Shown: positions 5,851-63,997 of the stretch, in pieces
How the letters are laid out: each line of letters starts with the position of its first letter
How positions within the stretch are numbered: the stretch's first letter is position 1
UHGV virus genome: UHGV-0037395
DNA length: 64,000 bases
Strand: one strand, 5' to 3'
Source: a virus
Notes under the pieces: model-generated
Seen by the model: only the letters and a program-made list of their open reading frames with translations
The model's database searches: none
What the model was told of the DNA's origin: nothing
Program-made: the position numbers and the translations under genes

Positions 5851-6093
5851 TTACGATTCCTTGAGCAAAGAAGCAAGTTCAGCATAGACTTTATCTAACT
5901 CAAAGCCGATGCGAAGAGACACGTTTGTTTTCCGTTGTTTAAGTAACCATTTGGATATATTAGGGATGCCAGCTAATCTATGTGGTACCACCCTACATAG
6001 CTTTTCCGAAGTGTCATAAACAGGAACTTTACGTTCTTTTACTGGGAACTTCCTTGTTTCCCATTTTTTATTCTTCACTGTCATTTCTAGCAC
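5851..6093 (-). CDS. Hypothetical protein (80 aa)
   Basis: ORF overlapping stop of the large ATPase gene. Confidence 0.3.
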   Translation of the reverse strand: MLEMTVKNKKWETRKFPVKERKVPVYDTSEKLCRVVPHRLAGIPNISKWLLKQRKTNVSLRIGFELDKVYAELASLLKES

Positions 6094-8857
6094 CTAGCTC
6101 TGCCATTGCTTCATCATGCATATGTTTCTCCTCATCAGTCATAAACTTATATGGGATTGGCATACACTCGATTTTACAATAAGTTCTGTACCAGTCTACA
6201 ATATTCTCCGTGTTCATATCTTTACCAATACCCATCATACCAAGATACATTCTGGCATATTTTGGGTTAGCACTCTGACCTGTTTTAAGGAAGAAATCTT
6301 TCTTCTTACCTTTCAGAGCTTCTATGAATGGTTTGATAGTGACATTTGAACACTTCTTAATATCTTCCCAGAACATCTCGTGCATTTTATGGAAGAATGC
6401 AGCCCGATCATTAGGTTTATCCTTGATATATTGTTCAACATGCTCAACTGTTACATCTTTAATAGACTCAAGATGGTAATAGCGAACAAGAAGTAGTTTA
6501 GCTTCATACGCATCTGCATGTCGTGGAGCACAATAATCAGGAGTTGAATACAAAATGGCTTTGATTCGCTCTTCTATATACTCTTTTCCTGCACCTTCGA
6601 TAGTTCCCCAGCTTTCACTGAAAATATCAATAGTTGCACCCTGATCAAGCAAGTAATAACGTAAAGTACTAGTATAGTTCCTAGACTCCAGCTCCCTACG
6701 ACGTGCGTATAATTGCTGTGCTAATTCCAGCCAACCTTCATCAATGTTATATTGTTCAGAGCCTGCGGAGAATCCACTCGTAGATTTATCAATAAAATAA
6801 TAAATGTTCTGAGCACCACGGTCGCGCCTGATTGCTTGAAAACGCATGTTTGGCGCTTGGTTACTAGTTCTAGTAATAACGAATACGTTATCAAAATAGT
6901 TGAAGTCAACACCACTTGTTACGGATGGACTACATAATAAGCAATCAATTTGTTGGTCAATTAGCTCATTAGTTGTGTAATCCAGAATACGTCTAATATC
7001 CACATCAGACGTAGAGTTTGAGTGGATTTCCTTAACTAACGCACCCGTATTACGACGTAATGCCATGCCCTTCTCATTCAGCTCATCAGGGCCACAATCA
7101 GATACCAGAATAGATTTCTCACCCATCTCTAGAGAAGTCTGAAGTGCAACCCAAATACTGGATTCATCAGGGAACTCATAAGCATGAGCTTTTGACAACA
7201 TCTTACGGTGATGGTTATAAAATGCAACCGGTTTATCAAACTCAATCAAAGAACCATATGCTTCAATTGTTTCTGCACTAATATCACCATCGGATAATAT
7301 AATGATTTTTGCAGTTGCAAGAATATCCCGAAGAACCTGAATACATTCACGACGTTGTTTAACAACCGGGGCGAATAATAGGTCGTTCATTACTGCATCA
7401 CATTCATCGATAAAGATTGCATCAATTTGACCAATAAAACTCTTGAACTTATGCAAAGAGTGAATAGTTGTGGACATACGATCAATAGCACCACGCTTAA
7501 AATTAAGCATATCTACAGACTTATCGTATTGTCCTGCACTAAATTTCTTAGCATTTGAAGATACCAGTGCTCTAGTATTGGTAATTGCTAAAAAATTACC
7601 TTTAATAACTCCTGAATCTAACCAACGCACAACCGCCGTGGTTTTACCTGTACCTAGACTTGCTTTTACAAAAGTCATATAACCTTCTGGTGGCACAGTA
7701 TTTAATTTCAAGAAGTTATCAGTTTCTAGGGAGTTAGTTTCTAGCTTTTTAAGTGGAATACCTTTTAAAACATCAGGTATATCGCGTTTAGAATTATTAA
7801 CAAACGCTTTCAGAGCCTGTTTACGACCGTTATTAAAATAATCTTGAATATTACGACTATTATCTTTAGTTGCAATATATTCTGATAAGGCTGGACGGAT
7901 TTCTTTTTCTAGCCATGCAAAATCAACACCATCCTCTAATGCTCTATGGTATAGTTTGGGGATAATACGCAAGTACACCCCATCCTCAGCTTCTTCTAGT
8001 TCGCTGATAGTTTCCTCTACTTTATCAGAGGCAGCTTTTTTACCTTTAATTTGATCAAGTAAAGAGTAAAACTCCTCCTTAAACTCACCCCTAGTTGTTT
8101 CATAGTCAACTAGATTATTGGGTAAATTTACTTTAGAACCCTTAACAAATACCAGACGTGAAGCACCCTCCGCTTTAAATGGATCTACTATACCATCAGT
8201 AAATAACGGATCTGCAAAATAGTGGAGCTGTACGGAAGAGTAATAAGCTAAGTCGGCAATATCAAAGCCATACTTTTGTCTACTACTTTCATTGATAGAT
8301 GTAAATAAGAATTTGATTTGACCCTGAGTTACTCTAACATTAGATTCTAGTATTAAGTGCATTCGGATACCTGGTTTTAGCCCAGCCGAAGACGATGCAT
8401 GAGCGATAAACCCTGCATCAAGAGGAAACATATCCTCACTAATACTATTTAACATTCTAATAATATGTCGAGCCATGCCAACAAGATCAAACTTGTTACA
8501 ACCACCTGTATCTACAATACCATCCACGTCCATTGCAATTATATGACTTGGGTTAGATACATTAAAGTTGCCCTTCTTACGTCGCACATTATTTTTAGGT
8601 GCAAGACATCGACCTCGTACCGCAACGATATGAGGGTCAGACGTTAAACGTCTCATAAGAGGAAGCATTTCTACTAGGGTTTGAGGATCAACTTCATCAA
8701 TTACATCAAACTTGAAGGGCATTGAAGCTGGTTTACCTTCAGGATGCTTTGAGGAAAATCTTTTAGCAAAAAGATAGTCTTCTGCTTTAACTTCCCGCCA
8801 AATGCCTGTGGCTAAATCGCGATGAAATCCTGCATGACCTTGTAGGATTGAGAACAC
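6068..8857 (-). CDS. Large Walker A/B ATPase, putative replication origin-binding or helicase-like protein (~929 aa)
   Basis: Walker A SLGTGKTT and Walker B IFIDECDAV. Probable GTG start at 8857 with RBS AGGAG 7 nt upstream (ORF track starts at TTG 8935). Long leader upstream. Confidence 0.45.
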   Translation of the reverse strand: MFSILQGHAGFHRDLATGIWREVKAEDYLFAKRFSSKHPEGKPASMPFKFDVIDEVDPQTLVEMLPLMRRLTSDPHIVAVRGRCLAPKNNVRRKKGNFNVSNPSHIIAMDVDGIVDTGGCNKFDLVGMARHIIRMLNSISEDMFPLDAGFIAHASSSAGLKPGIRMHLILESNVRVTQGQIKFLFTSINESSRQKYGFDIADLAYYSSVQLHYFADPLFTDGIVDPFKAEGASRLVFVKGSKVNLPNNLVDYETTRGEFKEEFYSLLDQIKGKKAASDKVEETISELEEAEDGVYLRIIPKLYHRALEDGVDFAWLEKEIRPALSEYIATKDNSRNIQDYFNNGRKQALKAFVNNSKRDIPDVLKGIPLKKLETNSLETDNFLKLNTVPPEGYMTFVKASLGTGKTTAVVRWLDSGVIKGNFLAITNTRALVSSNAKKFSAGQYDKSVDMLNFKRGAIDRMSTTIHSLHKFKSFIGQIDAIFIDECDAVMNDLLFAPVVKQRRECIQVLRDILATAKIIILSDGDISAETIEAYGSLIEFDKPVAFYNHHRKMLSKAHAYEFPDESSIWVALQTSLEMGEKSILVSDCGPDELNEKGMALRRNTGALVKEIHSNSTSDVDIRRILDYTTNELIDQQIDCLLCSPSVTSGVDFNYFDNVFVITRTSNQAPNMRFQAIRRDRGAQNIYYFIDKSTSGFSAGSEQYNIDEGWLELAQQLYARRRELESRNYTSTLRYYLLDQGATIDIFSESWGTIEGAGKEYIEERIKAILYSTPDYCAPRHADAYEAKLLLVRYYHLESIKDVTVEHVEQYIKDKPNDRAAFFHKMHEMFWEDIKKCSNVTIKPFIEALKGKKKDFFLKTGQSANPKYARMYLGMMGIGKDMNTENIVDWYRTYCKIECMPIPYKFMTDEEKHMHDEAMAELGARNDSEE

Positions 8858-9354
8858 AACAATACTCCTGTATTGGAAATGAAATAAGTTTTCTTTAGGA
8901 CTATTCAGAAAGAATAGAACAACTGTTACTGTCAATTTCTCAACAAATTAATTGCAAATACTGAAGGGGGGTGGCAACTTCCCCTTTCACGCTACACTGC
9001 CGCTTCACTATACCGCACAAATCCTTGAGGATGGCCGCTAAGCCAGATTTGCTCACCTAATGCTTCATGTACTAGCTCATACTAGATGTAGTATACCTTA
9101 CGTCATCACTTCTCAGAGTTTTTCACTCTTCCCGTCTCACTTCACAACCACCTCACACTAGGTTGCTTCGAGGCCTTACCAGGGTTCCTACGGGATGTAG
9201 ATCGCTAAGTATTCTATTAACTATTTGTTTAAAAACTAACACGTAACAGTTAAAACAACCCTTAATGGGGCAGCCTAACTGTTCCGTATCGCGGATTGTA
9301 AACAAGAAAAATTAGCAAAATCAATTTTTACTAATGTCTCTCATTTATGGGAAT

Positions 9355-9392: not shown

Positions 9393-9899
9393 TTACTGGA
9401 TTGATTCCCTACCGTATAATTGACCTCTAAACATCTTGGCCATAGAACATGCAACCTCATAGTTGTCATATGTTCCTTTAACTATCCGTTTACGGTTAAT
9501 AGTAAATACTACTTGCCAGTTCTTACTACCAGAAGGGTAAACATGCATTCCTTTCTTATATTTGATATTTCTTAGATTACCAGATACTGTCTGCTCTCTA
9601 AGATTTTCAATACGATCATCACCTTTTATAGTGTTCACATGATCTACTAAATCAGGTAAGTATCCATGATGCATTAAAAATATTGCTCTATGCCGAAGCA
9701 TAGTCCTATTCCCTAGAGATATACGATAATATCCGTTACCCGTAGAAACACAACATTCTTTCCCTGCATTTCTTCCCGTAGTTCTAAATAACTTACCATC
9801 TTCATATCGGAAGTTATCTAAAAGTTCTTGCTGTGTGAATGACATCCTCACCTCCAATACATATATTATTACATAATCCATCCAAATTGTCAACGACAA
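9393..9899 (-). CDS. HNH homing endonuclease
   Basis: YYRISLGNRTMLRHRAIFLMHHGYLPDLVDHVN...RIENLREQT matches HNH/NUMOD-type free-standing endonucleases. Confidence 0.65.
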   Translation of the reverse strand: MSLTIWMDYVIIYVLEVRMSFTQQELLDNFRYEDGKLFRTTGRNAGKECCVSTGNGYYRISLGNRTMLRHRAIFLMHHGYLPDLVDHVNTIKGDDRIENLREQTVSGNLRNIKYKKGMHVYPSGSKNWQVVFTINRKRIVKGTYDNYEVACSMAKMFRGQLYGRESIQ

Positions 9900-9987
9900 T
9901 TTATTTTGACTATCAATCGACTGGAAAGATTAGGTAATAATCCGAGCACTAATAGCCCGGATTATAAAGTTCATCTAATAAAAATCA

Positions 9988-10377
9988 TTAGTCATTTAAT
10001 CCCGGAACATAGATCCCAACACGGTTTAATTGTTCTTTAGCTTCTTTGAGAATATCTGGAGTGTACTCCCAAATATCATCTTCCACCTGTAAAAGATGGG
10101 GCGAACAACCATCATCAGGCGCACGACATATGGCCAAGCCACGTGGATGGAATATAGAGAAGTTTAGGGCAACAATTAAACCCATAGCGGACAATTCATT
10201 CCAGTCCATCTCCCATTCCCCGGCGTAGCCGGATAGAAAAACACCAATACAGGGATCATCTGTTTGCTGCTCAGGAAAAGTGAAGGAGGCTTGTCTTACC
10301 CCTAACCAACGTTGTAGCAGCTTTTCCGCACGCTTCACCAAACTAGGGTCAATCTGACGCCAATATACTTGTTCCAT
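9988..10377 (-). CDS. Hypothetical protein, paralog A of tandem pair (129 aa)
   Basis: Shares PCIG..W.E.D.MGL..ALN...F.P...and C-terminal (Y/M)(V/I)PGL with the adjacent ORF. Confidence 0.45.
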   Translation of the reverse strand: MEQVYWRQIDPSLVKRAEKLLQRWLGVRQASFTFPEQQTDDPCIGVFLSGYAGEWEMDWNELSAMGLIVALNFSIFHPRGLAICRAPDDGCSPHLLQVEDDIWEYTPDILKEAKEQLNRVGIYVPGLND

Positions 10378-10386
10378 TCTGCCTCC

Positions 10387-10815
10387 TTAAGCAGTTAAAC
10401 CTGGGATCATATACCCGAAACGTCGAAGTTTCTGAATCCCCTCATTTACTTCTTCCGGTGAGTAAGACCAACCATAACGTTCATTAACCTGAAAACCAGG
10501 AGATTCACTAGTTTTATAGTTAACAACAAGGCGATGCTTAGCAGGCATAAACAGCTTATAATTTAACGCAAAAACTAAGCCCATTTCGTCTAACTCTTTC
10601 CAGCCCACAATCTCTTCAAGACCATCCTCTACCTGCACAATTAAACCAATACAGGGCCCCTCATCAATATCATCTTTAAAAGCAAAGGAGATTTCGTTAT
10701 TCTCACACCATATTTTCAAAGAGTTAATAGCCTCATTATACAGGCTAGCTGGGAGAGTACGCCAAAAGTTAACCAAAATTGGGTTAGCTTCTTTAGAGAA
10801 TACATTATTGAACAT
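10387..10815 (-). CDS. Hypothetical protein, paralog B of tandem pair (142 aa)
   Basis: Paralogous to 9988-10377 (same conserved blocks). Confidence 0.45.
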   Translation of the reverse strand: MFNNVFSKEANPILVNFWRTLPASLYNEAINSLKIWCENNEISFAFKDDIDEGPCIGLIVQVEDGLEEIVGWKELDEMGLVFALNYKLFMPAKHRLVVNYKTSESPGFQVNERYGWSYSPEEVNEGIQKLRRFGYMIPGLTA

Positions 10816-22265: not shown

Positions 22266-22741
22266 TGTCGGTTTTCCACATTTACACAGATGGTGCTTGT
22301 AAGTCTAACCCAGGTCCAGGTGCTTGGGGTTTTATTGTCTATGATGATAACGACGATCGTTTAGGTTCTAAATCTGGTTATAATCCTAAAACTACAAATA
22401 ATGAGATGGAACTCACAGCTATTGTAGAAGCTCTACGTTGGTCTGTTAAAAAAGATAATAGACCAATTGCTATCTATACTGACTCTGCTTATTGCAAAAA
22501 TGGTATGGAAAGTTGGATGTTTTCTTGGCAAAGGAAAGGTTGGAAGAAAGCAGATGGTGAAGTTCCTCTTAATCTAGAACTTTGGCAGGAAGCATTTAAA
22601 TTAACACAGCAATATATTAACTTTCATAATACTAACCCTACCTTTATTAAGGTTAAAGGACATTCTGGTATTAGTGGTAATGAAGCTGTAGATGCATTAT
22701 GTAACACAGTTATTACTGAAGCTGAAATGGCTGAGATGTGA
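22265..22741 (+). CDS. rnh: Ribonuclease H
   Basis: HIYTDGACKSNPGPGAWGF...ELTAI...YTDS matches RNase HI catalytic DEDD motifs. Confidence 0.8.
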   Translation: MSVFHIYTDGACKSNPGPGAWGFIVYDDNDDRLGSKSGYNPKTTNNEMELTAIVEALRWSVKKDNRPIAIYTDSAYCKNGMESWMFSWQRKGWKKADGEVPLNLELWQEAFKLTQQYINFHNTNPTFIKVKGHSGISGNEAVDALCNTVITEAEMAEM

Positions 22742-56571: not shown

Positions 56572-56756
56572 TGGAAACTCTTTTTCTTTTAATGCTCGTA
56601 GGTTCTCTATTATTAATACTAGCACTTCTACTAATCTGCAACATTCTTAATAATAAGAATCTAGAGCTAAAGTGTGAGAACCAAATCCTTAATCGTGAAC
56701 TCAAACAATATAATCTAGCAGCCCATAAACTGTTAGACAAACTGGAGAATAAATAA
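56571..56756 (+). CDS. Small membrane protein (61 aa)
   Basis: TAATG coupling; TM helix. Confidence 0.35.
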   Translation: METLFLLMLVGSLLLILALLLICNILNNKNLELKCENQILNRELKQYNLAAHKLLDKLENK

Positions 56757-57364
56757 TGACTTTTAATGCACAACGATCTATTCAAGTAGTACCGGATCAT
56801 GAACTGAATACGTGGGATTATAGCTTTAAAGATTTAACTGCTACTGTACAATTCAAATCTATGAAACTAACATTTGCACATACCGACCTTAGAGCGTGTA
56901 AAGATTTTGAAGGTAAGCTTGAAGACGCTCGTAAGATTTTTGGTAAAGCTCGCATCCCAGCGGATAATCTTATTAACTCATTAATCGATGCAGGGTACAA
57001 ACTTGTGAAGACTGAGGTGAATCGTCCCAGTACCACTGTTAGTGATCCGTGGTCAAAAGGTGGTATTGCACTGTTAAATAATCCTAAAATAACGTCGGAA
57101 CTGCACAATGTTCCATGCGGGGGTACGCTGTCGTCTAATCAGTCCTATCGAGTTGGTGAAGATTATGGTCCTTCTGTACAGTTGAAACATACTCAAGAAG
57201 CTTTTGAATCTGATATGCGAAGCGCAGCACCTGCGGATTCTGGAGTTTCTAGGAGTTCTGTTTGTACTATTCATTTTAATAATCCTAGTAAACATGGAAG
57301 TTTAGAAGATGCTATTATGGAGGCATTGGGAGCTGCCATTAATGAAGATAAGAGAGGTAATTAA
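56756..57364 (+). CDS. Hypothetical protein (202 aa)
   Basis: ATGA coupling. Confidence 0.4.
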   Translation: MTFNAQRSIQVVPDHELNTWDYSFKDLTATVQFKSMKLTFAHTDLRACKDFEGKLEDARKIFGKARIPADNLINSLIDAGYKLVKTEVNRPSTTVSDPWSKGGIALLNNPKITSELHNVPCGGTLSSNQSYRVGEDYGPSVQLKHTQEAFESDMRSAAPADSGVSRSSVCTIHFNNPSKHGSLEDAIMEALGAAINEDKRGN

Positions 57365-57711: not shown

Positions 57712-58421
57712 TTAAAGAAGCTGAAAAATTAAAACGTCTTATCCAGTTAGCACGTGGAGCTACACAAAAGAGCCTTTCCCAGCTAACTGATGAAGAAAAA
57801 TATGCAGTAATGTTTTTAGGAGATCATTATCCTGCAAAGTGGGATAAAGGAAAGATCAAGTATGATCGGGATGCAAAACAAGTTGTTTGGTCAGGTTCAT
57901 ATGTGGAGGTAAATAAAGCGTTAAAGGCTTTAGATCCTGAAGCAAAAGGTTTCTCTTCCAATGCTATTCATATTCTAATTGATGAAGATCTCCCAAGATT
58001 TAAGGAAGCATCATTTAAAGAAGCATTAGCTAGCGAAGATCTTATTCCTTTTAAACACGGTAAGTATGCACATCTTCCTCCACTAGAAAAAGAGAAACCT
58101 ACTCTAGTTAAAGATGAAGTTTATCGTGGAATTGGCACAATGCTAGCGAGTTTGACTGTAGCTCTCCATAAAGATCTAGAGTTAACGCCCCTAGAAAACG
58201 CTGTGCATTTCATGTGCCATAAGTACGAGGACACATTTAAAGAACTATGTAAATCGCTAGGAATGCCAAGTTACACGATATTAAACTATGCTCCTGAGTA
58301 TACTAGAGCAGCACGCGGAACTATGGATTACGATGATACAGGATCCACTGCTTCCTATTTAGCAACTTATATCTACTTCGCATCTTTAGGTATCAAACTC
58401 AAATCCAAGAGGGAGGAATAA
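57708..58421 (+). CDS. Hypothetical protein (237 aa)
   Basis: Last plus-strand gene before the iteron region. Confidence 0.4.
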   Translation: MIKEAEKLKRLIQLARGATQKSLSQLTDEEKYAVMFLGDHYPAKWDKGKIKYDRDAKQVVWSGSYVEVNKALKALDPEAKGFSSNAIHILIDEDLPRFKEASFKEALASEDLIPFKHGKYAHLPPLEKEKPTLVKDEVYRGIGTMLASLTVALHKDLELTPLENAVHFMCHKYEDTFKELCKSLGMPSYTILNYAPEYTRAARGTMDYDDTGSTASYLATYIYFASLGIKLKSKREE

Positions 58422-58445
58422 AAGTTAGCAAAAAGTTCTTGCATT

Positions 58446-58476
58446 CTCATACCCAAACATGTTATAATAATCTCAT
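58446..58476 (+). promoter_or_regulatory. Sigma70-like promoter (TTGCAT-18-TATAAT) at start of iteron region
   Basis: Hexamers seen; no ORF downstream. Confidence 0.3.
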
Positions 58477-58887
58477 AGATTAACAACTACTCTAGTTGAT
58501 TAACTCTAGGGGCGATGATTATTACACGAATGTCTCGTATAGCTTGCGGCCTAGCAACAGCGGTATGACGGCATGAGTACTCACGTAATTAATCACGCGC
58601 CCCCAGGAGAGACTCTCATGAAATGGGGGTCTCTTTTTCTTTATATTATTTAAATATTTTTAATGGCAATATCTGTGTTCAAGATGATACACCTATTGCC
58701 GCTCATCTGCTAGGATGGCACAACACTTTCCTAGAAACTCCAGAGTTCTCACGAAATACTCACTCTTTCTAGGGCGGTTCTCCTAAGTTTCTAGGAACAT
58801 ATACTAGGCGGTTTAATACAGGGCGGTTATTGGGAGGGCGGTTATTTCTAGAAGACATTTTTTGAAAACACATTTCCAGAAATTACT

Positions 58888-59487
58888 GTCGGATTTGCAC
58901 ACTGACATAAGTTTAAAAACTGGTCGGATTTGCACAATCGCCTAAGTTTTTAGGAACACATAATCTCCTGAAAATGGCAGCATTATTTCGGGCCGAAGGC
59001 CCATGATTGCCTGAGTTTTTAGAGCCACAGAAATTTTCACTTGTCAAGCTATTTTGCTCCATTTAGCTAATAAAATTTTACTTTTTCTGCACTTATCTCA
59101 AATTAACCCAAATCTTCTCAACTCTTCCCCAAAATCCCCGCAAATCAGGTGCTCCGCACCAAACATGCACCCCTCCCGCAGTTCCCCCAAATTTCTCTCA
59201 CTCTCTCAACTTCTCCCCAAACTCATACAATCACACACCCTCTAATCGAAGTCACAAAAATCTTGTCGGATTCGCACAAATAAATCCATGTCGGATTTGC
59301 ACATATTCTAGTTAATTCCACAGGATTGATGCGCAGCATCAGATTGCTGGAGTTTTTAGGAAAATTCATTGTCGGATTTGCACACTATAAAAATTTTTCG
59401 GGTCGGATTTGCACATTACCAAAAATTGTCGGATTCGCACATACACGCCCGCACGTAACCCGTGGGGGCAAATGTCGGATTTGCACA
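58888..59487 (+). repeat. Array of eight direct 15-bp iterons TGTCGGATT(T/C)GCACA
   Basis: Copies at 58888, 58923, 59265, 59290, 59371, 59402, 59428, 59474; same orientation, irregular spacing, no ORF. Confidence 0.8.
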
Positions 59488-59516
59488 AAAGCGCAGGGCA
59501 ATTGCCCTGCTAGCCT

Positions 59517-59705
59517 GAATGCGAATGATAATGAGAATCATTCGCATTTAAAAAGCGGAATGAGAATGATAATGATTCGCATTTAAGAATGGAAGTGAGA
59601 ATTATTCAGGAAGTGAAACGATTCTCATTTAAAAAGTGGAATGATTATTAGTTAGATAGTGAAATGCGAATGATAATGATTCGTATTTAAGAATGGAAGT
59701 GAGAA
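59517..59705. repeat. Cluster of dimer-type palindromes (AATGCGAATGAT-N-ATCATTCGCATT family) and a ~45-bp direct repeat
   Basis: Perfect palindrome 59517-59548; related half-sites at 59557-59585 and 59661-59690; repeated GAATGGAAGTGAGAA. Confidence 0.7.
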
Positions 59706-59710
59706 ACACT

Positions 59711-59823
59711 ACTATTTAAGTTATCCACAGACTTATCAACAGCACGATTTGACTTGACAAAATCCTAGCCATTTTGAGGCGTTATCAACAGACTTATCAA
59801 CAGCTTATCCTACTGTATAAATA
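59711..59823 (+). repeat. Left arm of inverted repeat: DnaA-box cluster (TTATCCACA, TTATCAACA x4) plus CAGCTTATCCTACTGTATAAATATACAG
   Basis: 28-bp core is the exact reverse complement of 63888-63915; contains -10-like TATAAAT reading rightwards. Confidence 0.75.
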
Positions 59824-60026
59824 TACAGTATTCCTATGCAGTGAATAATTCTAATATAGCGTTAAAACGTCCTAGATCGCATTCTAACGCGTTTAATTTT
59901 GGTGGGGATACTAAAACAGGGGCAAAATTGGAGGAGGCTTGAAAATTAGTTAGCTCGCTAACGATCACACAAGGCGACACGTAACACCCTAACCATTAGC
60001 AGGCTAACCATCGCGGGCGCGGTCAA

Positions 60027-60047
60027 ATGAGAATCATTCTCATTTGA
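60027..60047. repeat. Perfect 21-bp palindrome AAATGAGAATCATTCTCATTT (operator-like)
   Basis: Same half-site family as 59.5-kb palindromes; sits at distal end of module operon. Confidence 0.6.
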
Positions 60048-60085
60048 GAATTGGGGGCACTTCCTGATAGTTGCGCCCCGTGATT
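60044..60085. terminator. GC hairpin plus T-run at distal end of minus-strand module (possibly bidirectional)
   Basis: GGGGC-ACTTCCTGATAGTTGC-GCCCC followed by GTGATTATTATT on plus strand. Confidence 0.4.
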
Positions 60086-60086
60086 A

Positions 60087-60281
60087 TTATTCTGGTAGTC
60101 GGTGCGTGATTTTTTCCTCTTCCCCGTAGGAATCCACCAAATGCTGATAATAACCATCGTGATCATAAATCACTTTATCATACTCCCCACGCTCGACCGC
60201 TTGTCGGTTTTCCAGCGTATCGGGCACGTAAAAAACATCAACCATTGTACTGATTTTGGTTACAACAATTTTATTGCTCAT
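60087..60281 (-). CDS. Hypothetical protein (64 aa), distal gene of GC-richer minus-strand module
   Basis: ORF followed on the minus strand by a hairpin terminator and a palindromic operator. Confidence 0.4.
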   Translation of the reverse strand: MSNKIVVTKISTMVDVFYVPDTLENRQAVERGEYDKVIYDHDGYYQHLVDSYGEEEKITHRLPE

Positions 60282-60296
60282 AGTAACGCCCCGTTA

Positions 60297-60521
60297 TTAG
60301 TTGACTATCTCAAAAATAGCGTTCTCAAGTGTCGCCCTTAGAATCCTCTCGCGCCCTACTACGGAATACTTGAGATCTGGTATTTTGTAACGCTCAATTG
60401 TTTTGAGTAGTTGATCTTTTTGGGCTTTATATTTTTGCCCTTCCTGCACTATCGTGTCGCCTTCGGCTTTAACGCAAATCAGTGTAACCATATAACCCCC
60501 TAGTAAATATATTTTTGCCAA
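60297..60521 (-). CDS. Hypothetical protein (74 aa)
   Basis: ORF in module operon. Confidence 0.4.
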   Translation of the reverse strand: MAKIYLLGGYMVTLICVKAEGDTIVQEGQKYKAQKDQLLKTIERYKIPDLKYSVVGRERILRATLENAIFEIVN

Positions 60522-63599: not shown

Positions 63600-63887
63600 T
63601 TGTCGGCCTCCTCGTTAATCGGTGAGTGAATGATAAAGGTATTTTCTTTCTAGGGGCAAATATTATTTTACTTTTTTATTTTCCTTGCCTAACGCCTAGT
63701 TTTATGCTAACCGCGCAGCGGTGTAATAAAGAGCAAACCACGGCGAAGCCACCAGGGCGCCGCACTGAAGCCACCTGGCCAACGTGTTGGGTCTTTACTT
63801 TAATACTACCCCGCAGCGTTTAGCTCGTTAGAAAGCGATTTAGGCCGCTTAAAATTGATTGCAGTCGTTAACACTGCCTTTCTACCC

Positions 63888-63997
63888 TGTATATTTATAC
63901 AGTAGGATAAGCTGTGGATAAGTCTGTGGATAAGTCCTTATATCGCCGCCTATCGTGTCAAATTATTTTGTGCTGTGATTAATTCTGTGGATAACTT
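63888..63997 (-). repeat. Right arm of inverted repeat: CTGTATATTTATACAGTAGGATAAGCTG followed by tandem consensus DnaA boxes (TTATCCACA x3 on minus strand)
   Basis: Exact inverted copy of the left arm core; promoter-like TATAAAT reading leftwards into the module operon. Confidence 0.75.

What the first reader, a model, noticed from the sequence alone, without database searches (positions are those of the whole stretch)
58888..59487. Eight direct copies of a 15-bp iteron TGTCGGATT(T/C)GCACA in an ORF-free region
Two copies near 58.9 kb and six between 59.26 and 59.49 kb share one orientation with variable spacing (about 25-45 bp). That pattern is typical of initiator or partition-protein binding arrays and of transcription-factor titration sites. 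It is not CRISPR-like. In a T5-like genome the iterons could be the binding platform of a phage DNA-transfer or replication control protein. I recall that the T5 injection-stop region is described as repeat- and palindrome-rich, which would fit, but this is memory, not something checked here.
Basis: partly seen in the sequence, partly recalled or inferred. Interest (0 to 1): 0.7.

Follow-up and report, generated by a model that had tools for sequence, protein, structure and literature searches.

The report
Known T5 "direct repeat D" array
The eight repeats are real, but they are the already catalogued "direct repeat D" of phage T5 and its relatives, an oriented set of probable protein-binding sites around the inner end of the long terminal repeat whose function is still unknown.

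Summary
There are eight same-strand copies of TGTCGGATTYGCACA at 58887-59487, against 0.24 expected by chance, and almost none elsewhere in the window. The array is not new. The window is a T5-like phage read on the T5 minus strand, and the copies match "direct repeat D copy 1-8" annotated in T5 GenBank AY587007 in position and spacing. These lie in Repeat Region 3, the injection-stop region described by Wang 2005 and Davison 2015/2020. No function has been assigned in the literature I could read.

My additions:
- The conserved core is R-TCGGATTTGCAC-W.
- Arrays of the core, always in one orientation, sit at the homologous place in Klebsiella, Pectobacterium and Vibrio T5-like phages whose spacers have diverged.
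- The mapped end of the terminal repeat, window 59021/59022, falls between two clusters of copies in five Tequintavirus/Epseptimavirus phages. The same holds in My1 and in Vibrio phage AG74.
- In whole T5 all 18 core matches are on one strand and 15 are in these arrays.

The most likely reading (about 0.35) is a binding array for a small phage protein that marks the repeat end for terminase. The close rival (about 0.3) is a landing pad for pre-early protein A2 that restarts DNA transfer. Novelty: already known. Interest: low to moderate.

The parts
58887..58901 (+). DRD copy, homologue of T5 direct repeat D copy 8; lies outside the terminal repeat (cluster B)
   Evidence: Exact match. Position and spacing match T5 10260-10274.
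58922..58936 (+). DRD copy, homologue of T5 copy 7; cluster B
   Evidence: One mismatch, GGTCGGATTTGCACA. The same variant occurs in T5, MM-1 and K16.
58987..59090 (.). Highly conserved core that contains the inferred inner (right) end of the long terminal repeat at about 59021/59022 (cctgagttttt|agagccacag...cacTTGTCAAGc)
   Evidence: Mean column identity is 0.948 over 23 distinct T5-like sequences. Within this core, window 59015-59090 is the only stretch that blastn still matches in Klebsiella T5-like phages. Annotated repeat ends of T5, MM-1, phiR201, Sw2 (PhageTerm) and Elw all map here. The position is inferred by homology and was not measured for this phage.
59091..59263 (+). C-rich spacer between the repeat end and cluster A; holds T5 'direct repeat A' copies
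   Evidence: GC skew is -0.5 to -0.6. D9 family repeats TCTCAACTCTTCCCCAAAATC. T5 features.
59264..59278 (+). DRD copy, homologue of T5 copy 6; cluster A, inside the terminal repeat
59289..59303 (+). DRD copy, homologue of T5 copy 5; its position shifts by 10 bp between phages
   Evidence: Spacings are 81+25 in some phages and 71+35 in others.
59370..59384 (+). DRD copy, homologue of T5 copy 4
59401..59415 (+). DRD copy, homologue of T5 copy 3
59427..59441 (+). DRD copy, homologue of T5 copy 2
59473..59487 (+). DRD copy, homologue of T5 copy 1; the copy nearest the first-step-transfer boundary
   Evidence: T5 copy 1 starts at 9672, which is 7.94% of the genome.
59491..59498 (+). GCGCAGGG, homologue of the T5 major nick site 1 (7.9%), 3 bp from DRD copy 1
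   Evidence: T5 feature 'major single-stranded nick 1' at 9661-9668. CCCTGCGC is shared by T5 nicks 1-3. The published consensus is R/GCGCRGG (PMC3517423).
59493..59510 (-). Palindrome J hairpin with a T-run that runs into DRD copy 1; terminator-like for the pre-early transcripts
   Evidence: Terminator scan. T5 'palindrome J'.
57093..57107 (+). Degenerate copy (CGTCGGAACTGCACA, 3 mismatches) inside ORF 56756..57364; positional homologue of T5 'direct repeat D copy 10'
   Evidence: It is well preserved in T5 and MM-1 but decayed here, so it is probably dispensable.

Best explanation
Shown: these are the 'direct repeat D' (DRD) units of T5-like phages. They lie in the 1.6-kb non-coding stretch between the pre-early genes (window minus strand, inside the long terminal repeat) and the early genes (window plus strand). 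The conserved unit is an asymmetric 12-13 bp core, R-TCGGATTTGCAC-W. All copies point the same way. They form two clusters: six copies inside the terminal repeat and two just outside it in this phage. The physical inner end of the repeat, which is also the right end of the virion DNA, lies in the roughly 340-bp gap between the clusters. Inferred: each unit is the binding site of one small sequence-specific DNA-binding domain, and the array is a nucleoprotein landing pad that marks this boundary. My preferred mechanism is that the phage terminase small subunit binds the array in replicated concatemeric DNA. In T5 that subunit is the ORF annotated 'SciB', directly upstream of the large terminase. 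Binding would position the large terminase to cut within the conserved core and create the right genome end. This resembles pac and cos sites, where clusters of short repeats flank the cut. The array's closeness to the 7.9% nick site and to the first-step-transfer boundary would then follow from everything being built around the repeat end.
For: - Identity: the units match the T5 DRD features base for base and in spacing.
- Selection on the motif: core columns average 0.968 identity against 0.856 for other columns among 23 T5-like sequences.
- Conservation across diverged phages: Klebsiella phage Sealy has 11-12 same-orientation copies while its spacers no longer align. Pectobacterium My1 and Vibrio AG74 (A1 protein only 31% identical) keep the same core in the same place and orientation.
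- Link to the repeat end: annotated or PhageTerm-derived repeat ends of T5, MM-1, phiR201, Sw2 and Elw all map to window 59021/59022, between the clusters. In My1 there are 6 copies inside and 4 outside the annotated end. In AG74 the exact 7130-bp repeat ends between copies 32 and 40 bp away. Cluster A is always inside the repeat, 40-350 bp from its end.
- Site shape: the sites are asymmetric, direct, and can be packed 14-17 bp apart (My1, L096, L099). That fits monomeric domains of a ring or oligomer better than a symmetric dimer.
- A candidate binder exists: the T5 'SciB' ORF belongs to phrog_3802 'terminase small subunit' and is 43% identical to the AG74 homologue.
- Background: the mechanism that makes long exact terminal repeats is unknown, and concatemers carry one repeat copy per junction (PMC8541194).
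- The motif is essentially confined to this locus.
Against: - No binding data exist for any protein.
- The left boundary of the repeat has no DRD and shares no 9-mer with the right boundary, so DRDs cannot explain both cuts.
- Vibrio phage 70E35.5a has only the inside cluster, with a diverged left half, so flanking of the cut is not universal.
- The N-terminal helix-turn-helix-like part of the small terminase varies between T5 and AG74 although their motif is the same.
- Pre-early protein A2 is an equally good candidate binder.
- The array also starts 54 bp beyond the nominal first-step-transfer shear point (Davison), which fits the injection hypothesis equally well.
- The packaging direction of T5 is stated inconsistently in the literature.
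Confidence: 0.35

Rival explanations
1. Landing pad for second-step transfer. The pre-early DNA-binding protein A2, with membrane-associated A1, binds the DRD units, which are the first sequences beyond the point where injection pauses. Binding captures or ratchets the DNA to restart transfer. Alternatively the DRDs are part of the stop signal itself.
For: - DRD copy 1 starts at 7.94% of T5 and the shear point is put at about 7.9% (9618).
- AY543070 annotates the stretch holding copies 1-6 as 'injection stop signal'.
- A2 is essential for second-step transfer, is a DNA-binding dimer, and has no known target.
- A2 is 39-41% identical from T5 to Vibrio phages, with an invariant VRSKL segment. 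That is as conserved as the motif requires.
- In my searches, DRD arrays turned up only in T5-like phage records and in contigs that look T5-like; I did not check each of these for A2.
- The Shewanella phage KASIA has long repeats but no A2 and lacks the motif.
Against: - A symmetric dimer is not expected to read an asymmetric direct repeat.
- An injection role gives no reason for the repeat end to sit inside the array in three subfamilies, or for cluster A always to be duplicated in the right repeat.
- At the pause the DRDs would lie outside the cytoplasm if the 7.9% estimate is exact.
- There are no binding data.
Confidence: 0.3
2. Weak host DnaA boxes, or sites for another host factor. The right half of the unit (ATTTGCACA) would extend the known DnaA-box cluster of the injection-stop region. 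It would help tether or titrate DnaA, in line with Davison's membrane-DnaA stop model.
For: - ATTTGCACA matches the TTWTNCACA consensus at 8 of 9 positions. One 70E35.5a copy (TTTTGCACA) matches 9 of 9.
- I estimate roughly 0.007 for such a match in a random 13-mer (my own calculation).
- The half TTYGCAC is the part that stays constant in every lineage.
- The neighbours are host-factor sites: consensus DnaA boxes, a near-perfect LexA box and Fur-box-like repeats.
Against: - The left half TCGGA is as conserved as the right half in most lineages and is not part of any DnaA box.
- Spacings of 25-81 bp do not fit DnaA oligomer arrays.
- The left half differs between two Vibrio phages (AG74 and 70E35.5a). 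That argues for a co-evolving phage protein rather than a conserved host one.
- A scan of 185,579 bacterial genomes for paired copies found no host arrays.
- From my own knowledge, T5 replication does not depend on host DnaA.
Confidence: 0.1
3. Replication-origin or copy-control iterons bound by a phage initiator such as the UL9-like 'origin-binding protein' encoded at window 6068-8935.
For: - The layout (direct repeats plus nearby DnaA boxes) resembles iteron origins.
- Two of the eight units contain TTCGCAC, which resembles the herpes UL9 box GTTCGCAC (box sequence from my memory).
- The T5 annotation calls the homologue 'replication origin binding protein'.
Against: - The phage protein matches Herpes_ori_bp and solved UL9 structures only over the first helicase motifs (residues 414-559). 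Its length leaves no room for a UL9-type DNA-binding domain.
- No initiator gene is adjacent.
- Spacing is irregular and the region lies between convergent genes.
- T5 origins were mapped near the middle of the genome (Davison).
Confidence: 0.07
4. No sequence-specific function: repeats spread by local duplication and kept by descent.
For: The whole region is well conserved among close relatives, not only the repeats.
Against: - The core is kept while spacers diverge beyond alignment in Klebsiella, Pectobacterium and Vibrio phages.
- Orientation is strictly uniform.
- A compensated 10-bp shift keeps the total distance constant.
Confidence: 0.03

Closest known systems
T5 'direct repeat D' (DRD) of Repeat Region 3 / injection-stop region (GenBank AY587007 features; Davison bioRxiv 10.1101/866236)
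   Same: Same 15-bp unit, strand, order, spacing (46, 26, 31, 81, 25, about 343, 35) and genomic position. The window's array is the orthologue.
   Different: This phage lacks T5 copy 9, and its copy-10 homologue has decayed. Region identity to the best database records is about 93%.
pac / cos recognition sites with clustered repeats flanking the cut: P1 pac hexamers 4+3, SPP1 pacL/pacR, lambda cosB R sites (recalled from my own knowledge)
   Same: Two clusters of short oriented repeats on either side of a conserved stretch where the genome end is made.
   Different: Binding by terminase is untested. Distances are larger (86-350 bp). The site is far from the terminase genes. The phage makes a 10-kb exact repeat, not cohesive or headful ends.
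T7 short-repeat arrays SRL/SRR next to its 160-bp terminal repeat (recalled from my own knowledge)
   Same: Arrays of short direct repeats bordering an exact terminal repeat in a phage that packages from concatemers.
   Different: Different sequences and a different repeat length. The role of the T7 arrays is itself not settled.
Iteron arrays of plasmid and phage origins (P1 incC/incA, pSC101) and centromere repeats (R1 parC)
   Same: Oriented direct repeats in two clusters, with DnaA boxes nearby.
   Different: No adjacent initiator or partition gene. Irregular spacing. A 12-13 bp core rather than 19-22 bp. A virulent phage with origins mapped elsewhere.
DnaA-box clusters (oriC low-affinity arrays, datA)
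   Same: The right half of the unit is an 8/9 DnaA box, and true DnaA boxes lie 230 bp away.
   Different: There is a conserved extra half (TCGGA). The spacing is not the 11-bp register of DnaA arrays.

Membership tests
T5 direct repeat D (DRD) | Unit sequence TGTGCAAATCCGACA on the T5 plus strand | tested here: met
   The annotated T5 units coincide exactly with motif hits. The window copies are identical or differ by 1 base.
T5 direct repeat D (DRD) | Fixed order and spacing of copies 1-8 | tested here: met
   T5 spacings are 46, 26, 31, 81, 25, 344, 35. The window has the same series in reverse: 35, 342, 25, 81, 31, 26, 46.
T5 direct repeat D (DRD) | Location in the non-coding region between pre-early and early genes, spanning the inner end of the terminal repeat | tested here: met
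   Convergent ORFs end at 58421 (+) and about 60023 (-). The region is syntenic with T5, MM-1 and K16. The repeat end maps to 59021/59022 by homology.
Terminase recognition (pac/cos-type) site | Lies at the place where the virion DNA end is cut | tested here: met
   The repeat end lies within the array in T5-likes, My1 and AG74.
Terminase recognition (pac/cos-type) site | Bound by the small terminase subunit | not testable with these tools
   Only a candidate protein was identified (T5 'SciB' ORF, phrog_3802).
Terminase recognition (pac/cos-type) site | Necessary and sufficient in cis for cutting and packaging | not testable with these tools
   This needs a plasmid packaging or transduction assay.
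T5 injection stop signal (iss) | Position at about 7.9-8.3% from the left end | tested here: met
   T5 copies 1-6 lie at 9672-9895, which is 7.94-8.13%. The AY543070 iss feature covers them.
T5 injection stop signal (iss) | Acts in cis to pause DNA transfer | not testable with these tools
   No published deletion of the DRDs was found.
Origin or copy-control iterons | Adjacent initiator (Rep) gene | tested here: not met
   The flanking ORFs hit only unknown-function T5 families. No Rep or Par family was found.
Origin or copy-control iterons | Regular, helically phased spacing (about 11 or 22 bp) | tested here: not met
   Spacings are 25, 26, 31, 35, 46 and 81.
DnaA box | Match to TTWTNCACA | tested here: inconclusive
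   Six units match 8 of 9 positions and the two TTC variants match 7 of 9. The exact-pattern scan does not pick them up. The extra conserved half TCGGA is foreign to DnaA boxes.
CRISPR array | Repeats of 24-48 bp with unique spacers of similar length | tested here: not met
   The units are 15 bp with very unequal gaps, and the spacers are conserved among phages.

The most novel reading that the evidence does not exclude
The DRD array would be the long-sought cis element that defines the inner end of the 7-13 kb exact terminal repeat in the whole family Demerecviridae. It would be either a repeat-flanked 'pac' site read by the small terminase or the specific target of protein A2 that restarts DNA transfer. 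It would work inside a conserved module that also recruits host LexA, DnaA and possibly Fur. Either reading would give T5 two-step injection or long-repeat packaging its first defined protein-DNA interaction.
Probability: 0.35. Interest if true: 0.65.

Novelty: already known. Interest (0 to 1): 0.3.

Why it matters
Two questions about T5 have stayed open for decades. One is how injection stops at 8% and restarts. The other is how exact 10-kb terminal repeats are cut and duplicated. The DRD array sits exactly where both processes meet. It is conserved from coliphages to Vibrio phages and has no assigned function. The array itself is textbook-level annotation, so finding it again in one more T5-like genome is ordinary. 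The useful output here is a sharper, testable framing: a 12-nt core, strict polarity, the repeat end inside the array across three subfamilies, and two named candidate binders.

Tried and rejected
The window protein 6068-8935(-) matches Herpes_ori_bp and solved UL9 chains only over residues 414-559, which are helicase motifs. The resemblance is therefore probably chance.
- Non-coding RNA. Rfam returns no match at E up to 1 in 58300-60300.
- Promoter operators. The region lies between convergent genes and promoter-like hits are at background level (8 found against 5.4 expected).
- Host chromosomal arrays. A scan of 185,579 genomes for two cores 5-35 bp apart gave 8 loci. Six are unrelated tandem repeats and two look like phage contigs. 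The same scan in IMG/VR gave only T5-like genomes, a few likely relatives and tandem-repeat noise.
- Extra T5 copies in D13/exo2 (79019-79048). They encode VQILQVQIRQ, persist in Eps7 and are absent from the Klebsiella phage KpGranit gene, so they are probably incidental.
- Shared sequence between the left and right repeat boundaries. No common 9-mer was found.
- Covariation of motif variants with A2 or small terminase. Both proteins are about 40-46% identical across T5, AG74 and 70E35.5a, and there are too few motif classes to decide.
- Solved structures for A2 or small terminase. None exist.
- KASIA, which has long repeats and no A2. It has only a weak TTTCTGCACCC repeat near its repeat end, which is not convincing.
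- Papers I could not obtain: Davison 2015 and Rhoades 1984.

Full report
**Observation.** The motif TGTCGGATTYGCACA occurs eight times on the + strand between 58887 and 59487. Six copies are exact and two begin GG instead of TG. The only other hit in 64 kb is a 2-mismatch match at 22266. Shuffles give 0.24 hits, and none of 100 reach nine. Start-to-start spacings are 35, 342, 25, 81, 31, 26 and 46. Only short mechanical ORFs overlap the region.

**What it is.** The 1.4 kb around the array matches 458 T5-like phage records at 80-95% identity, on their minus strand, at about 9-11 kb from the left end. GenBank AY587007 (T5) annotates 'direct repeat D copy 1-9' at 9672-10409. My motif scan lands exactly on those features, and the spacing series (46, 26, 31, 81, 25, 344, 35, 137) is the window's series read backwards. 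AY543070 labels the same stretch 'injection stop signal (iss)'. [quoted passage not shown] Papers from 2023 and 2026 still treat the stop signal and the role of A2 as unresolved. The finding is therefore the orthologue of a named, annotated element. This phage lacks T5 copy 9. Its homologue of 'copy 10', inside ORF 56756..57364, has decayed to 3 mismatches.

**Anatomy.** The array lies between convergent genes. Early genes on the + strand end at 58421, followed by a terminator-like hairpin at 58605-58637. Pre-early genes on the - strand end near 60023. Reading the window left to right, the elements are:
- cluster B: copies 8 and 7
- a nearly invariant core at 58987-59090
- a C-rich spacer
- cluster A: copies 6 to 1
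- GCGCAGGG, the homologue of the T5 7.9% nick site, 3 bp after copy 1
- the palindrome J hairpin
- AT-rich repeats that resemble Fur boxes
- DnaA boxes and a near-perfect LexA box

Flanking ORFs hit only T5 families of unknown function, plus the pre-early Ung-dependent nickase. No initiator or partition protein is nearby.

**Conservation among close relatives.** In about 30 complete T5-like genomes from IMG/VR the spacing pattern is kept, always on one strand. One variation is instructive. Copy 5 sits either 81+25 or 71+35 bp from its neighbours, a 10-bp shift that keeps the total distance constant. Among 23 distinct sequences the core columns average 0.968 identity against 0.856 for the other columns (Mann-Whitney p about 2e-10). 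The whole region is well conserved, however, so close relatives alone are weak evidence.

**Conservation in distant relatives.** These give the stronger evidence.
- Klebsiella phage Sealy shares only 76 alignable bases with the query. Those bases are the core around the repeat end. It still carries 11-12 same-strand copies of RTCGGAWWTGCACAT in two clusters flanking that core, followed by a GCGCAGG element, Fur-box-like repeats, DnaA boxes and a LexA box.
- Pectobacterium phage My1 (subfamily Mccorquodalevirinae) has six copies inside and four outside its annotated repeat end.
- Vibrio phage AG74 (Ermolyevavirinae, A1 31% identical) has eight copies of the same core. The end of its exact 7130-bp repeat lies between copies 32 and 40 bp away.
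- A position matrix from 74 sites in eight phages shows information confined to R-TCGGATTTGCAC-W, with uninformative flanks.
- Vibrio phage 70E35.5a keeps only the right half (TWGRWTTYGCACAT, six copies) and has no outside cluster.

**The repeat end.** Five independently annotated phages put the inner end of the terminal repeat at the position homologous to window 59021/59022. They are T5, MM-1, phiR201, Sw2 (PhageTerm) and Elw. This position is in the gap between copies 6 and 7. The T5 right terminus reads ...TTGACAAGTGAAAATTTCTGTGGATC|TAAAAAC, and My1 ends at the homologous place. Two outliers have explanations or doubts. The Seafire 'PhageTerm' end maps onto the nick site at about 59494, probably because a nick mimics a terminus. 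The Kenya-K16 end maps near 59700. The left boundary of the repeat shares no 9-mer with the right boundary and has no DRD.

**Genome-wide distribution.** In complete T5 the core with up to 1 mismatch occurs 18 times against 0.43 expected, all on the minus strand. Fifteen are in the boundary arrays (6 + 3 + 6). One is in ORF019. A tandem pair sits in D13/exo2; it encodes VQILQVQIRQ and is absent from a Klebsiella homologue. Scans of 185,579 bacterial genomes and of IMG/VR for paired cores return only T5-like phages, a few likely relatives and unrelated tandem repeats.

**Mechanism.** The shown facts are:
- an asymmetric 12-13 bp unit
- strict polarity
- tolerance of 14-17 bp packing in some lineages
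- irregular but conserved spacing
- confinement to one locus
- position around the repeat end
- position immediately beyond the 7.9% point

These are the properties of an array of sites for a small sequence-specific DNA-binding domain. Which protein binds is inferred, not shown. I favour the terminase small subunit (confidence 0.35). The repeat end sits inside the array in three subfamilies, and cluster A is always kept within 40-350 bp of that end and therefore duplicated at the right terminus. Direct asymmetric sites also suit a ring-forming protein. The T5 ORF annotated 'SciB', directly upstream of the large terminase, belongs to the small-terminase family and is 43% identical in AG74. Known pac and cos sites have repeat clusters flanking the cut (from my own knowledge).

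**Close rival: A2 (0.3).** A2 is essential for second-step transfer, binds DNA, has no known target, and is 39-41% identical across the family with an invariant VRSKL segment. The array begins 54 bp beyond the nominal stop point. Against this, A2 is a dimer while the site has no dyad. An injection role also does not explain why the repeat end lies inside the array.

**Other rivals.**
- Host DnaA (0.1). The right half is an 8/9 DnaA box and the neighbours are host-factor sites. However, TCGGA is equally conserved, the spacing is wrong for DnaA arrays, and two Vibrio phages differ in the left half.
- Origin iterons (0.07). There is no adjacent initiator, and the UL9-like protein matches only in its helicase motifs.

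**Verdict.** The element is already known. Its function remains an open question, and the experiments listed under next steps could settle it quickly.

Noticed in passing
window 59811-59830 and 63885-63904: TACTGTATAAATATACAGTA differs from the LexA/SOS-box consensus at one base. This is T5 'palindrome D'. A second box (CCCTGTATATTTATACAGTA) lies beside three TTATCCACA DnaA boxes at 63913-63994. LexA-type boxes also sit next to the DnaA boxes in Klebsiella Sealy (L070 3107-3126), Vibrio AG74 (L076 7856-7875) and 70E35.5a (L103 6598-6617). I found no mention of LexA in the T5 papers I could read.
   Followed up: partly
window 59518-59700 and 60023-60047: The T5 DRC/DRE/palE-I repeats (AATGCGAATGATAATGAGAATCATTCGCATT and similar) resemble Fur boxes. 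GATAATGAGAATCATT matches 15 of 16 bases of GATAATGATAATCATT. Only one copy passes 3 mismatches or fewer to the 19-mer consensus. Similar repeats occur in Sealy and My1. Vibrio phages have other AT-rich tandem repeats at that position.
   Followed up: partly
window 59000-59300: Strong strand asymmetry (GC skew about -0.5 to -0.6). On the T5 plus strand a G-rich tract with TTTTGGGG-like units runs 5' to 3' toward the right genome end, 40-240 bp from it, in a telomere-like arrangement.
   Followed up: no
T5 (AY587007) 9661, 22250, 39660; window 59441-59498: The T5 major nick sites share CCCTGCGC and also a second element about 28-29 nt downstream (GGATTACG / GGATTACG / ATATTACA). DRD copy 1 fills that spacer at nick 1. 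A published remark says R/GCGCRGG alone cannot specify the nicks.
   Followed up: partly
T5 (AY587007) 108016-108498: The ORF annotated 'SciB protein' (sci = single-chain interruption) is a small-terminase family member (phrog_3802, E 6.5e-91) directly upstream of the large terminase. If the label is right, nicking and packaging are linked. I could not read the genetic mapping paper.
   Followed up: partly
window 58783-58850: Four direct copies of GGGCGGTT lie just outside the repeat end, beyond cluster B. The same motif recurs at the homologous place in Sealy (L070 1960-2000) and My1 (L074 about 6010-6040).
   Followed up: no
window 58727-58743, 58778-58804, 58937-58963, 59006-59032, 59343-59369: A second repeat family, CCTAAGTTTTTAGGAAC-like and partly palindromic, has four direct copies at 58778, 58937, 59006 and 59343 and one inverted copy at 58727. 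Two direct copies abut DRD units. The copy at 59006-59032 contains the inferred repeat end.
   Followed up: no
L079 (Salmonella phage Seafire) 1216: The 'terminal repeat predicted with PhageTerm' ends at the homologue of the 7.9% nick site, not at the true repeat end. Nicks in T5-like DNA can apparently mislead terminus callers.
   Followed up: no
window 6068-8935 (-): This 955-aa protein, annotated in T5 as 'replication origin binding protein', matches herpes UL9 only over helicase motifs (residues 414-559). Its N-terminal 400 residues have no family match.
   Followed up: partly
window 58575-58586: ATGAGTACTCAC matches the E. coli SlmA-binding consensus GTGAGTACTCAC (consensus recalled from memory) at 11 of 12 positions. 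It may be chance.
   Followed up: no
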